Shown here in pieces: positions 3,001 through 6,000 of a stretch of DNA of 64,000 nucleotides. Every line of letters starts with the position of its first letter. Positions within the stretch are counted from its first letter, which is position 1. The DNA lies in NCBI RefSeq assembly GCF_013167455.1, contig NZ_CP038328.1. One strand, written 5' to 3'. The position numbers are program-made. The DNA comes from Escherichia coli O157:H7 (GTDB lineage Bacteria > Pseudomonadota > Gammaproteobacteria > Enterobacterales > Enterobacteriaceae).

Positions 3001-6000
3001 GAAGGTAAGCGCTAATAAAAAGTGCCGGGTAGTGGCTTTGCTTTACCCGGCCTCATTACTTTATTTTATAAAATGACAGCCGCCCGCTTTTCGGCGATCC
3101 GGTATCAATATAAATCTGGTTAGCGAACGTCTGAATGTTATCAAACATCATATGTCCAAATATAAAATAATCAGCGCCGTTTATTTGTTGTAACTCGCCA
3201 TTAAGCGATTTCTGCACACGATCAACAGGCCAGAGTAATTCGCTCTCCGCTATTTCTTTACCAAAGAGATATTCACTCCCCGGATAATCTGCATGTGCGA
3301 TGACATATTTTATGTTGTCGTTAGTGATTTCAATAATATGTGGAAGGTGATGGAATTTCAGCAACAGATCTGTAGCTTCTTTTTGCTCTGAATCATTTAA
3401 ATCGAAAAACCAGTCACCACCGCTGGCAAGCCACATATTGCCATCGCCGGTCGCGAACGCATCCAGCGCCATTGCTTCGTGGTTGCCTTTAACGGAGATA
3501 AACCAGGGCTGGTTTAGCAGGCGCAGGACGTTAAGACTCTCCGGCCCACGATCAATATTATCGCCGACAGAAATAAGTAAGTCGGTTTCGGGGAAAAAAG
3601 AGAGTTGATGTAAGCGGGATTGTAATAACTGATATTCACCATGAATATCACCAACGACCCATATATGGCGATAGTGATGGGTATTGATTTTTTGATAGCG
3701 TGTAGATGGCATGGTTTTACCCTGTAAAATAAGCTTTCCTATTATACAGGGTATTTTTATTTGATTCGTCAGTTATCGTTAATATTCCCGATAGCAAAAG
3801 ACTATCGGGAATTATTATTACACCAGACTCTTCAGGCGATAAATCCATTCCAGCGCCTGACGCGGGGTGAGTGAATCCGGATCGAGGTTTTCCAGTGCCT
3901 CGACTGCAGGCGAGGTTTCTTCCGGTACGGACAGCAAAGACATTTGCGTACCATCCACTTGCGTAGCGGCGGCGTTCGGCGAAATGCTTTCCAGCTCACG
4001 CAGTTTTTGCCGTGCGCGCTTAATAACCTCTTTTGGCACGCCGGCCAGAGCTGCAACCGCCAGGCCGTAGCTTTTGCTCGCCGCGCCATCCTGCACGCTA
4101 TGCATAAAGGCAATGGTGTCGCCGTGCTCCAGTGCATCGAGATGCACGTTGGCGACGCCTTCCATTTTCTCCGGTAACTGGGTCAGCTCGAAATAGTGGG
4201 TGGCAAACAGCGTCAACGCCTTAATCTTATTCGCCAGATTTTCCGCGCACGCCCACGCCAGCGACAGACCATCGTAAGTGGACGTTCCGCGCCCAATCTC
4301 ATCCATCAGCACCAGACTGTACTCGGTGGCGTTATGCAGAATATTAGCGGTTTCGGTCATCTCCACCATAAAGGTTGAACGCCCGGAAGCCAGATCATCC
4401 GCTGCCCCTACGCGGGTAAAGATACGGTCAATCGGGCCAATCTCGACTTTTTGCGCCGGTACGTAGCTGCCGATATAGGCCATCAGCGCAATCAGTGCGG
4501 TCTGGCGCATATAGGTACTTTTACCGCCCATGTTCGGACCGGTAATAATCAACATCCGGCGCTGCGGTGACAGATTCAGCGGGTTGGCGATAAATGGCTC
4601 GTTCAGCACCTGTTCAACCACCGGATGGCGGCCTTCGGTAATGCGAATGCCCGGTTTATCAATGAAGGTCGGGCAGGTGTAGTTCAGGGTATAGGCCCGT
4701 TCCGCCAGGTTCACCAGCACGTCGAGTTCCGCCAGCGCGCTCGCGCTCTGTTGCAACGCTTCCAGATGCGGCAACAGCAGGTCGAACAGCTCTTCATAAA
4801 GCTGTTTTTCCAGAGCCAGTGCTTTGCCTTTTGAAGTGAGGACTTTATCTTCGTACTCTTTTAGCTCTGGAATGATGTAGCGCTCGGCGTTTTTCAGCGT
4901 CTGGCGACGCATATAGTTGATAGGTGCCAGATGGCTTTGCCCACGGCTGATTTGAATGTAGTAGCCGTGCACCGCATTAAAGCCAACTTTTAGCGTGTCC
5001 AGGCCGGTACGTTCACGCTCGCGGACTTCCAGACGCTCCAGATAATCGGTCGCGCCGTCAGCCAGCGCGCGCCACTCATCCAGCTCTTCGTTATAGCCTG
5101 ATGCGATAACACCACCGTCGCGTACCAGCACCGGCGGTGTGTCGATGATTGCTCGCTCCAGCAGATCGCGCAGCTCGGCAAACTCGCCCATCTTCTCACG
5201 TAGCGCCTGTACTGGTGCACTATCAACAGTTTCTAACTGCGCACGCAGCTCCGGCAGTTGCTGGAAAGCGTGACGCATACGGGCCAGATCGCGTGGGCGA
5301 GCGGTACGCAACGCCAGACGCGCCAGAATACGTTCCAGGTCGCCGACCTGACGTAGTACCGGCTGCAACTCGGCGGTGAAATCCTGCAATGCGCCAATAG
5401 TTTGCTGGCGCTCAAGCAACACGCGGGTATCGCGCACTGGCATATGCAGCCAGCGTTTCAGCATACGGCTGCCCATCGGCGTGACGGTGCAGTCGAGCAC
5501 AGAAGCCAGCGTATTTTCCGCACCACCCGCCAGGTTCTGGGTGATTTCCAGATTACGACGCGTCGCGGCATCCATAATGATGCTGTCCTGCTCACGTTCC
5601 ATGGTGATGGAACGAATATGCGGCAGAGTCGTACGTTGGGTATCTTTCGCATACTGCAACAGACAACCGGCAGCACAAAGTCCGCGCGGCGCGTTCTCGA
5701 CGCCAAAACCGACCAGATCGCGGGTCCCAAATTGCAGATTCAACTGCTGGCGCGCGGTGTCGATTTCAAACTCCCACAGCGGGCGACGGCGCAGGCCGCG
5801 ACGGCCTTCAATTAACGACATTTCAGCAAAATCTTCTGCATACAGCAGTTCCGCAGGATTAGTGCGTTGCAGTTCTGCCGCCATCGTTTCCCGGTCAGCC
5901 GGTTCGCTCAGGCGAAAACGACCGGAACTGATATCCAGCGTCGCGTAGCCGAAACCTTTGCTGTCCTGCCAGATAGCCGCCAGCAGGTTGTCCTGACGCT

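What the first reader, a model, noticed from the sequence alone, without database searches (positions are those of the whole stretch)
3056..3712. pphB is conspicuously AT-rich relative to its neighbours
The pphB coding sequence has long A/T runs and visibly lower GC than the flanking mutS and decarboxylase genes, consistent with horizontal acquisition and with its position at the edge of the hypervariable mutS-rpoS interval.
Basis: seen in the sequence. Interest (0 to 1): 0.2.

Follow-up and report, generated by a model that had tools for sequence, protein, structure and literature searches.

The report
AT-rich pphB phosphatase gene beside mutS
The E. coli phosphatase gene pphB really is much more AT-rich than its neighbours, but it is an old, almost universal, phage-derived resident next to mutS, not a recent import, so the finding is real and ordinary.

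Summary
pphB (window 3056-3712, minus strand) has GC 42.3% and GC3 42.9%. mutS has 56.5/63.0% and the UbiD-type decarboxylase 57.6/69.3%. pphB is the lowest of 46 coding sequences in the window (z = -3.6) and has four times the density of A/T runs.

- **Origin:** PphB is a lambda-phosphatase (NinI) family enzyme. Its relatives sit on phages and on AT-rich integrative islands, so a mobile-element origin is well supported.
- **Age:** the gene is not recent. It is in 5232 of 5426 complete E. coli genomes and, at the same place, in the four other Escherichia lineages sampled. Its synonymous divergence is similar to that of mutS, and dN/dS is 0.10-0.16.
- **Composition:** every PphB-type gene I examined is AT-rich in every host. 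Polarised synonymous changes give an equilibrium GC3 of about 0.40, so the gene is not drifting towards host composition.
- **Position:** the edge position is exact. Homology between O157-type and K-12-type strains ends at the pphB stop codon.

Side result: the Salmonella "pphB" is not a simple ortholog. It is a relic of an AlpA-type island at the ygbA-mutS (SPI-1) site.

Low interest; already known in substance.

The parts
3056..3712 (-). pphB (prpB) coding sequence, 218 aa, a PPP/lambda-phosphatase-family Ser/Thr phosphatase. This is the AT-rich gene of the finding.
   Evidence: ORF. PGAP annotation. NCBIfam NF007425 equivalog, 472.6 bits against a cutoff of 332. Pfam PF00149. Full-length alignment to lambda phosphatase 1G5B with the GDxHG, GDxxDRG and GNHE motifs. 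GC 0.423, GC3 0.429.
3057..3783 (-). The whole AT-rich tract: pphB plus its 71-bp upstream spacer. It is bounded by the mutS terminator hairpin on one side and by the strain-variable segment on the other.
   Evidence: GC 0.411 over 727 bp; sub-segments 0.377, 0.544, 0.401 and 0.296. Homology with K-12-type strains starts at 3057. Homology with Salmonella, Superficieibacter and Klebsiella spallanzanii downstream of mutS stops after the hairpin.
3754..3782 (-). Promoter-like element TTAACG-17-TAAAAA for pphB.
   Evidence: Exact match to the constitutive sigma-70 promoter that Shimada et al. 2014 (PMC3946193) list for the mutS>pphB spacer and mark 'HNS'. I did not test it here. The consensus scan did not call it.
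3718..3753 (-). 14-nt inverted repeat or hairpin (TACCCTGTATAATA-N8-TATTTTACAGGGTA) 6 nt upstream of the pphB ATG. It overlaps a TATAAT hexamer and the likely Shine-Dalgarno AGGG.
   Evidence: Inverted repeat. Fold of the spacer: -36.5 kcal/mol, z = -7.3. In the Escherichia sequences the arms are conserved and the loop varies; one arm change in E. albertii is G-U compatible. Absent upstream of PphB genes in other genera. Function is not established.
3784..3812 (-). Hairpin directly after the mutS stop codon, the probable mutS terminator. It is the outer limit of the pphB tract.
   Evidence: It is kept, with compensatory stem changes, downstream of mutS in Salmonella, Superficieibacter, K. spallanzanii and Escherichia sp. 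E1V33. In strain TUM9757 IS1 abuts it where pphB is deleted.
3818..6379 (-). mutS, the GC-normal upstream neighbour used as the comparator.
   Evidence: GC 0.565, GC3 0.630.
3024..3051 (.). GC-rich hairpin (GCCGGGTA-N12-TACCCGGC) between the convergent ecdD and pphB genes. It belongs to the O157-type variable segment.
   Evidence: Read directly from the sequence. The scan did not call it because the loop exceeds 8 nt. The segment 3016-3055 is absent from K-12-type strains (their matches start at query position 42, which is window 3057).
194..3015 (.). O157-type variable segment: a MarR-family regulator (194-601/634, minus strand) and ecdB (748-1341), ecdC (1341-2768) and ecdD (2779-3015) on the plus strand, encoding hydroxyarylic acid decarboxylase subunits. 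This is the GC-normal downstream neighbour.
   Evidence: Pfam hits, annotation, GC 0.52-0.58. Only 810 of 5426 genomes cover at least 80% of window 1-7100.

Best explanation
pphB is an anciently domesticated member of the lambda NinI/lambda-phosphatase family. The family circulates on phages and on AT-rich integrative islands.

A short cassette (promoter plus gene, about 730 bp) became fixed directly after the mutS terminator. This happened before the sampled Escherichia lineages, out to E. albertii, diverged. The cassette has been inherited vertically since then as a functional, moderately constrained gene.

Its AT-richness has two sources:
- The protein is rich in Ile, Asn, Lys, Phe and Tyr.
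- Its synonymous sites sit at a low-GC steady state (GC3 about 0.4).

I infer that this steady state reflects AT-biased mutation in a weakly expressed, H-NS-associated gene with little codon selection. It is not a fading signature of recent transfer.

Because pphB is retained, it marks the constant inner border of the mutS-rpoS variable interval. Alternative gene blocks (ecd/MarR in O157, ygbI and following genes in K-12-type strains) are exchanged from the nucleotide after its stop codon.

Shown: composition, identity, distribution, synteny, divergence, and the direction of substitutions. Inferred: the original donor, and the reason the low-GC steady state is maintained.
For: **Composition**
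- Lowest GC and GC3 of 46 genes.
- FYMINK 0.31 (second highest) and GARP 0.19.

**Identity and function**
- NF007425 equivalog, PHROG 246 NinI-like, 1G5B at E = 1.5e-58 with the catalytic motifs.
- dN/dS 0.10-0.16.

**Mobile relatives**
- 1359 phage records encode homologs; the best listed identities are 46-49% (P1 Ppp 46.6%).
- PphB-type genes that pass the NF007425 cutoff lie in an AlpA-type island in E. coli (flanks 40% GC). A Kluyvera island copy scores just below the cutoff (320.7 against 332).

**Age**
- Present in 5232 of 5426 complete E. coli genomes.
- Downstream of mutS in E. albertii, two other Escherichia lineages and a divergent strain labelled E. coli.
- dS of pphB is 0.40-0.75 against 0.28-0.51 for mutS in the same pairs.
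- The Escherichia clade has 100% bootstrap support.

**Family-wide AT-richness**
- GC 0.40-0.48 and GC3 0.36-0.50 in every host, against mutS GC3 of 0.62-0.70.
- lambda ninI 0.449, P1 ppp 0.486, K-12 pphA 0.478.

**No amelioration**
- Across 13 Escherichia sequences there are 44 AT-to-GC and 38 GC-to-AT synonymous changes.
- The implied equilibrium GC3 is 0.40 (95% interval 0.30-0.51).
- For mutS it is 0.53 (0.49-0.57); P is about 0.016 for the difference.
- P is about 0.001 that the pphB value reaches the window mean of 0.586.

**Border role**
- Homology breakpoint at 3057.

**H-NS**
- The mutS>pphB spacer is flagged HNS in PMC3946193.
- The Salmonella pigA-pphB segment is one of the intervals in which H-NS ChIP-seq read depth was quantified (bioRxiv 10.1101/2022.04.26.489344).
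Against: - No mobility gene, att-like repeat or AlpA remnant flanks the Escherichia copy, so its island or phage origin is inferred from relatives only.
- The closest listed phage homologs are only 46-49% identical. No donor is identified.
- The substitution-direction test uses parsimony on 13 sequences, NJ trees and small counts (82 changes). It ignores recombination, which is frequent at mutS.
- The grouping of the mutS-downstream copies of Escherichia, Superficieibacter and K. spallanzanii has only 71% bootstrap support. Their junctions with mutS differ. One ancient insertion and several separate ones therefore cannot be told apart.
- I did not measure expression level or H-NS binding in O157.
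Confidence: 0.7

Rival explanations
1. Recent horizontal acquisition. On this view pphB arrived in E. coli or O157 lately as part of the hypervariable mutS-rpoS segment, and its low GC is an unameliorated donor signature.
For: GC and GC3 are far below those of the neighbours. The gene abuts a segment that does differ between strains. Its relatives sit on mobile elements.
Against: - It is present in 96% of complete E. coli genomes as a single copy at the same site, whatever lies beyond it.
- It is present downstream of mutS in four other Escherichia lineages.
- Its dS is similar to that of mutS.
- There is no excess of AT-to-GC changes.
- The one pphB-lacking genome I inspected lost it by an IS1-associated deletion.
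Confidence: 0.03
2. There is no foreign origin at all. On this view the low GC is simply a by-product of the amino-acid composition and functional constraints of this enzyme family.
For: GC1 (0.525) and GC2 (0.315) are low and FYMINK is 0.31. lambda NinI has the same GC2 (0.311). The conserved catalytic stretch 3401-3560 has normal GC, 0.544.
Against: - GC3, which is largely free of protein constraint, is also the lowest in the window (0.429, z = -2.76).
- The non-coding upstream spacer is even lower, at 0.296.
- PphA has near-normal GC1 and GC2 but still a low GC3 of 0.434.
- The patchy distribution in Enterobacteriaceae and the island-borne copies argue for mobility.
Confidence: 0.1
3. Actively selected AT-richness. 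On this view the gene is kept AT-rich because H-NS binding or silencing, or an AT-dependent regulatory architecture, is advantageous. Selection rather than mutation bias would then set the low-GC steady state.
For: - Equilibrium GC3 is about 0.40, below that of mutS.
- The spacer is flagged HNS in genomic SELEX (PMC3946193).
- AT-richness is conserved across all hosts.
Against: No test here separates selection from AT-biased mutation with relaxed codon selection. A GC3 of about 0.4 is also roughly what mutation bias alone is expected to give in E. coli; that figure is from my general knowledge and I did not compute it here. CAI is low but not extreme.
Confidence: 0.15

Closest known systems
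E. coli PphB/PrpB (NCBIfam NF007425; Missiakas & Raina 1997, cited in PMC6213207 and PMC12711010)
   Same: It is this gene. It has a full-length equivalog match (472.6 bits), the PGAP name pphB, and the position downstream of mutS.
   Different: Nothing differs at the gene level. The O157-type strains differ from K-12 only in what follows the stop codon (ecdDCB/MarR instead of ygbI and the following genes).
Bacteriophage lambda Ser/Thr phosphatase NinI (PDB 1G5B) and P1 Ppp
   Same: Same fold family and length. The GDxHG, GDxxDRG and GNHE motifs align. PHROG 246. These genes are also below host GC (lambda ninI 0.449, P1 ppp 0.486).
   Different: P1 Ppp is 46.6% identical in protein; I did not compute the identity to lambda NinI. 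pphB is chromosomal, lies outside any prophage, is more AT-rich than either, and is conserved across the sampled Escherichia lineages.
E. coli PphA/PrpA (NF008516)
   Same: A paralogous 218-aa lambda-phosphatase-type enzyme. It too has a low GC3 (0.434) in K-12.
   Different: PphB scores 240.7 bits on the PphA model, below its cutoff of 326. An Enterobacter PphA is 49% identical to it. PphA lies at a different locus (yebW-sdsR/ryeA) and has near-normal GC1 and GC2.
Salmonella 'pphB'/PrpB at the mutS-proximal end of SPI-1 (PMC7232297)
   Same: It passes the NF007425 cutoff (433 bits), is adjacent to mutS, is AT-rich (GC 0.419), and lies in a segment where H-NS ChIP read depth was quantified.
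   Different: - It is only 61% identical to the E. coli protein and lies upstream of mutS, not downstream.
- It groups with an E. coli island-borne copy (67% identity, 99% bootstrap).
- It keeps a stop-interrupted AlpA-like remnant upstream, as in those islands.
- I therefore do not regard it as a positional ortholog.
mutS-rpoS polymorphic region of E. coli (LeClerc 1999, Herbelin 2000, Culham & Wood 2000, as cited in PMC4209514)
   Same: The window begins inside this region. The O157-specific 2.9-kb insert described there corresponds to the ecd/MarR block at 194-3015.
   Different: pphB is the conserved border of the region, not one of its variable cassettes.

Membership tests
PphB (NCBIfam NF007425 equivalog) | Whole-protein score at or above the curated cutoff of 332 bits, over the full length | tested here: met
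   472.6 bits, residues 1-218 against profile positions 1-218.
PPP / lambda-phosphatase metallophosphoesterases (Pfam PF00149; PDB 1G5B) | Calcineurin-like phosphoesterase domain above the gathering score, and the metal-binding motifs GDxHG, GDxxDRG and GNHE | tested here: met
   PF00149 at 65.4 bits against 21.5. GDIHG, GDNIDRG and GNHE align to GDLHG, GDLVDRG and GNHE of 1G5B.
PPP / lambda-phosphatase metallophosphoesterases | Mn2+-dependent phosphoprotein phosphatase activity | not testable with these tools
   Reported for PrpB in the literature (Missiakas & Raina 1997; Shi et al. 2001, cited). I did not read those papers or test the activity here.
Recently acquired genomic island or islet | Composition atypical for the host | tested here: met
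   GC z = -3.58 and GC3 z = -2.76 among 46 genes.
Recently acquired genomic island or islet | Sporadic presence among strains of the species | tested here: not met
   5232 of 5426 complete genomes carry it, and 5195 of them match at least 80% of the query length. One absence was examined and is an IS1-associated deletion.
Recently acquired genomic island or islet | Flanking mobility genes, a tRNA, or att-type direct repeats | tested here: not met
   No direct repeats bracket the gene. There is no AlpA or integrase remnant in the window. No Rfam RNA match in 2500-7100. I did not run the tRNA finder.
Recently acquired genomic island or islet | Divergence or phylogeny incongruent with neighbouring core genes | tested here: inconclusive
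   Within Escherichia, dS of pphB is 1.0-1.6 times that of mutS, which is compatible with co-inheritance. Incongruence is seen only elsewhere: in Pseudocitrobacter vendiensis pphB has dS 0.46 against 0.82 for mutS, and the Salmonella copy groups with an island copy.
H-NS-bound (xenogeneically silenced) gene | AT-rich DNA with A/T tracts | tested here: met
   GC 0.411 over 3057-3783. 19.8 runs of at least 6 A/T bases per kb.
H-NS-bound (xenogeneically silenced) gene | Measured H-NS occupancy and de-repression in an hns mutant | not testable with these tools
   Literature only. There is an 'HNS' mark on the mutS>pphB spacer in PMC3946193, and the Salmonella pigA-pphB segment was quantified in an H-NS ChIP-seq experiment.

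The most novel reading that the evidence does not exclude
PphB-type phosphatase genes may be characteristic cargo of a family of AT-rich, AlpA-regulated integrative islands that repeatedly land next to mutS. If so, three things would be relics or live members of one process that seeds the hypervariable regions on both sides of mutS:
- the canonical Escherichia pphB, downstream of mutS;
- the Salmonella pphB, upstream of mutS at the SPI-1 border, with its stop-interrupted AlpA remnant;
- the intact 38-kb island at the ygbA-mutS site of E. coli GPEC389.
Probability: 0.25. Interest if true: 0.4.

Novelty: already known. Interest (0 to 1): 0.12.

Why it matters
It matters little as a discovery. 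pphB, its lambda-phosphatase ancestry and the mosaic mutS-rpoS region are all established.

The useful point is a caution. Low GC here does not date a transfer. The gene is about as old as the genus Escherichia as sampled here, and its synonymous sites are at a low-GC steady state. Composition-based calls of "recent horizontal acquisition" would therefore mislead.

The side observation that the Salmonella "pphB" is an island relic, not the positional ortholog of the E. coli gene, corrects an assumption made in comparative maps of the SPI-1/mutS locus.

Tried and rejected
- **Mapping by coordinates.** I first mapped annotated genes from NZ_AP018488 onto the window by coordinate arithmetic. This failed beyond the first 7.1 kb because the window is not identical to that strain. 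I switched to exact-sequence mapping, and 14 of 60 genes that differ were left out.
- **CAI table.** Biopython's built-in Sharp E. coli index is not installed. I entered the weights from memory, so the CAI values are indicative only.
- **Karlin-type codon-bias distance from the rest of the window.** It is not discriminating (pphB 0.384 against a mean of 0.346, z = 0.32). Short genes inflate it.
- **Singleton-only polarisation with 6 sequences.** The power was too low: equilibrium GC3 0.41, interval 0.24-0.60. I replaced it with tree-based parsimony on 13 sequences.
- **First bootstrap run.** It compared rooted with unrooted trees and gave meaningless low supports. I redid it on splits.
- **Genome contigs peptide-pattern scan.** It found only 6 close relatives, two of them in MAGs labelled Oscillospiraceae and Citrobacter. 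I used the protein database and contig look-ups for distant orthologs instead.
- **Rfam scan of 2500-7100.** No match.
- **Conserved 5' leader across genera.** None was found. The upstream hairpin is specific to Escherichia.
- **Cumulative-GC change-point estimate.** It was badly parameterised, and I discarded it.
- **Older papers.** Herbelin 2000 and LeClerc 1999 are not held in the library.
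Full report
**What the window is**

Window 1-7100 is 100% identical to E. coli O157:H7 strain PV15-279, NZ_AP018488 3679316-3686415, reverse strand. 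The layout is:

| Feature | Coordinates | Strand |
|---|---|---|
| End of rpoS | off the left edge | |
| MarR-family regulator | 194-601/634 | - |
| ecdB (UbiX-like) | 748-1341 | + |
| ecdC (UbiD-like) | 1341-2768 | + |
| ecdD | 2779-3015 | + |
| pphB | 3056-3712 | - |
| mutS | 3818-6379 | - |
| ygbA | 6666-7019 | + |
| fhlA | 7056-9134 | - |

**Checking the observation**

- pphB has GC 0.423 (GC1/2/3 = 0.525/0.315/0.429). mutS has 0.565 (GC3 0.630), ecdC 0.576 (GC3 0.693) and the window 0.532.
- Only 0.9% of all 657-bp windows are as low; z = -2.85.
- The sliding profile drops to 0.395 at 3001-3400 between flanks of 0.56-0.59.
- Among 46 annotated coding sequences, pphB is lowest in GC (z = -3.58) and GC3 (z = -2.76). 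It is second lowest in GC2.
- CAI, with Sharp & Li weights entered from memory, is 0.255. That is fifth lowest and not unique; the MarR gene has 0.245.
- Runs of at least 6 A/T bases occur at 19.8 per kb, against 4.7-4.9 per kb in mutS and ecdC.

The observation therefore stands, with three refinements:
- The low-GC tract is 3057-3783 (GC 0.411) and includes a 71-bp spacer of GC 0.296.
- It is interrupted by a GC-normal stretch, 3401-3560 (0.544), that encodes the GDNIDRG and GNHE catalytic motifs.
- The nrdF-proV region of the same window is lower still, with a minimum of 0.387.

**What the gene is**

- PphB matches the NCBIfam equivalog NF007425 at 472.6 bits (cutoff 332) over its full length.
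- It matches Pfam Metallophos and PHROG 246, 'NinI-like serine-threonine phosphatase'.
- It aligns end to end with the lambda phosphatase structure 1G5B (E = 1.5e-58), with the GDxHG, GDxxDRG and GNHE motifs conserved.
- Homologs occur in 1359 phage records. The best listed identities are only 46-49%, for example P1 Ppp at 46.6%.

**How old it is, and where else it occurs**

- A query covering pphB and its short flanks (window 3016-3817) matches 5232 of 5426 complete E. coli genomes, nearly always once.
- In most genomes the match begins at window 3057, inside the pphB stop codon.
- Only 810 genomes share the O157-type ecd/MarR block.
- Eight strains spread over 93.6-98.9% identity all have ygbI-pphB-mutS.
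- One genome lacking pphB has IS1 abutting the mutS terminator hairpin and a truncated GntP gene. This is a secondary deletion.
- pphB lies downstream of mutS in E. albertii (80% protein identity), in Escherichia sp. E1V33 and MOD1-EC7003 (87-88%), and in a divergent strain labelled E. coli (89%). An E. marmotae homolog at 88% is listed, but I did not check its context.
- Against these four lineages, dS of pphB is 0.40-0.75 and dS of mutS is 0.28-0.51. dN/dS is 0.10-0.16 for pphB and 0.004-0.023 for mutS.

The gene has therefore been co-resident with mutS since before these Escherichia lineages split. It is under purifying but much weaker constraint than mutS.

**The AT-richness is a family trait and is not decaying**

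- Every PphB-type gene I examined is AT-rich whatever its host. GC is 0.40-0.48 and GC3 0.36-0.50, where the adjacent mutS has GC3 0.62-0.70.
- lambda ninI (0.449), P1 ppp (0.486) and K-12 pphA (0.478, GC3 0.434) are also below host composition.
- Part of the signal is in the protein: FYMINK 0.31 (second highest of 46) and GARP 0.19.
- I polarised synonymous third-position changes on 13 Escherichia sequences by parsimony, rooted on E. albertii:

| Gene | AT-to-GC changes | GC-to-AT changes | Implied equilibrium GC3 (95% interval) | Present GC3 |
|---|---|---|---|---|
| pphB | 44 | 38 | 0.40 (0.30-0.51) | 0.38-0.45 |
| mutS | 255 | 374 | 0.53 (0.49-0.57) | 0.60-0.63 |

- The pphB equilibrium equals its present value and is lower than that of mutS (P about 0.016). 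It is well below the window mean GC3 of 0.586 (P about 0.001).
- This is a rough test: small counts, NJ trees, and recombination ignored. Even so, it argues that the low GC is a maintained steady state and not a residue of recent transfer.
- Why it is maintained is inference. The likeliest cause is AT-biased mutation with weak codon selection in a poorly expressed gene, possibly reinforced by H-NS association.
- The mutS>pphB spacer is marked 'HNS' and given the promoter TTAACG-17-TAAAAA in PMC3946193. That promoter matches window 3782-3754 exactly.
- The Salmonella pigA-pphB segment is one of the intervals in which H-NS ChIP-seq read depth was quantified.

**Origin**

The PphB clade is separated from PphA and NinI-type proteins with 100% bootstrap support.

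mutS-linked copies outside Escherichia:
- Superficieibacter: mutS-pphB-rpoS, with pphB the only gene in the interval.
- Klebsiella spallanzanii: mutS ... hok-pphB-hok-ecdDCB-MarR-rpoS.
- Pseudocitrobacter vendiensis: an O157-like arrangement.

Island-borne copies:
- There are copies on AT-rich islands next to an AlpA-like gene in Kluyvera and in E. coli. The E. coli island copy passes the NF007425 cutoff. The Kluyvera copy scores just below it.
- The E. coli island is a stretch of about 38 kb with 38% GC in strain GPEC389. It lies between ygbA and mutS, with its integrase next to the mutS 5' end. This is the position of SPI-1 in Salmonella. That strain also keeps the canonical pphB downstream of mutS.

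The Salmonella copy:
- It lies upstream of mutS.
- It is 67% identical to the island copy against 61% to E. coli pphB, and it groups with the island copy at 99% bootstrap.
- It retains, divergently upstream, a stop-interrupted remnant of the island's AlpA-like gene (62% over 34 residues, E = 3e-9).
- It is therefore an island relic, not the positional ortholog of E. coli pphB. This differs from the description in PMC7232297.

For the Escherichia copy no such relic survives. A mobile origin is thus inferred from the family, not shown at the locus. The mutS-downstream copies group together only weakly (71% bootstrap), and their junctions differ.

**Anatomy of the spacer**

- The hairpin directly after the mutS stop codon (3784-3812) is conserved, with compensatory changes, in Salmonella, Superficieibacter, K. 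spallanzanii and Escherichia sp. E1V33. It belongs to mutS.
- Sequence homology between genera ends after that hairpin.
- A second 14-nt inverted repeat (3718-3753) lies 6 nt from the pphB ATG. It overlaps a TATAAT hexamer and the likely ribosome-binding site, and it is conserved only within Escherichia.
- Whether this repeat is an operator, a translational hairpin or a plus-strand terminator is open.

**Verdict**

It is wrong if read as recent acquisition. This is a known gene in a well-studied region, so interest is low.

Noticed in passing
L031 (NZ_CM142810.1, E. coli GPEC389), about 4800-42700; pphB-like gene at 21302-21958; integrase at 41306-42598: A 38-kb, 38%-GC integrative island lies between ygbA and mutS, the chromosomal position of SPI-1 in Salmonella. 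It carries an integrase next to mutS, an AlpA-like HTH gene, a reverse transcriptase, a HipA-domain protein and a second PphB-type gene. The strain also has the canonical pphB downstream of mutS. Only 2 of 5426 complete E. coli genomes match this segment.
   Followed up: partly
L008 (Salmonella, GCA_018776965.1) 5764-5865, minus strand, upstream of pphB at 6001-6657: A stop-interrupted remnant of an AlpA-like gene (NRLIKVNDVLERCTISRATLS*LI...) is 62% identical to the island AlpA. It has the same divergent layout as in the E. coli and Kluyvera islands. Together with the 99%-bootstrap grouping, this marks the Salmonella pphB as an island relic.
   Followed up: partly
L010 (Klebsiella spallanzanii) 5473-5772 and 6675-6974: pphB is bracketed by two 300-nt direct repeats, 93% identical and 1202 nt apart. 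Each carries a Hok/Gef-family gene. This suggests a duplication or a cassette-type insertion.
   Followed up: no
L003 (Pseudocitrobacter vendiensis) 3314-8967: The arrangement mutS-pphB-ecdDCB is as in O157. pphB is closer to E. coli (dS 0.46, 90% protein identity) than the adjacent mutS is (dS 0.82). This suggests transfer of the segment downstream of mutS from an Escherichia-like donor.
   Followed up: partly
window 3718-3753: A 14-nt inverted repeat (TACCCTGTATAATA/TATTTTACAGGGTA) lies just upstream of the pphB ATG and overlaps a perfect TATAAT and the likely Shine-Dalgarno sequence. In the Escherichia sequences the arms are conserved and the loop varies. On the plus strand it is followed by a T-run. 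Its role is unknown.
   Followed up: partly
L005 (Escherichia sp. E1V33), about 5333-6000: This lineage has a spacer of about 670 bp between mutS and pphB where the others have 105 bp, that is, about 560 bp of extra AT-rich sequence.
   Followed up: no
L007 (E. coli TUM9757) 5288-6036: pphB and the ygbI-M genes are deleted. IS1A abuts the mutS terminator hairpin and a truncated GntP (ygbN) gene. This is an example of how the roughly 4% of pphB-negative genomes can arise.
   Followed up: partly
window about 57900-59200, 43980-44850, 45070-45800, 37200-37980, 30460-31270: These are other low-GC tracts (657-bp windows at or below 0.45). The lowest, 0.387, lies in the nrdF-proV region and is lower than pphB.
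   Followed up: no
L017 (E. albertii) 2236-2664; hits H2 and H9-H11: Some E. coli strains and E. albertii carry a TOBE-domain gene that is absent from the window. In E. albertii it lies between fhlA and ygbA. It is another small presence/absence polymorphism at this locus.
   Followed up: no
L001 (MAG labelled Oscillospiraceae) 1231-1884 and L002 (MAG labelled Citrobacter sp.) 2183-2836: These contigs encode PphB at 96% and 92% identity to the E. coli protein. They are probably Escherichia contigs mis-binned into the MAGs.
   Followed up: no
window beyond about 7100: 14 of 60 reference-strain genes (for example norV, hypF, hycE, nrdE, alaS) are not sequence-identical in the window. The window therefore comes from an O157-like strain other than PV15-279.
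   Followed up: no
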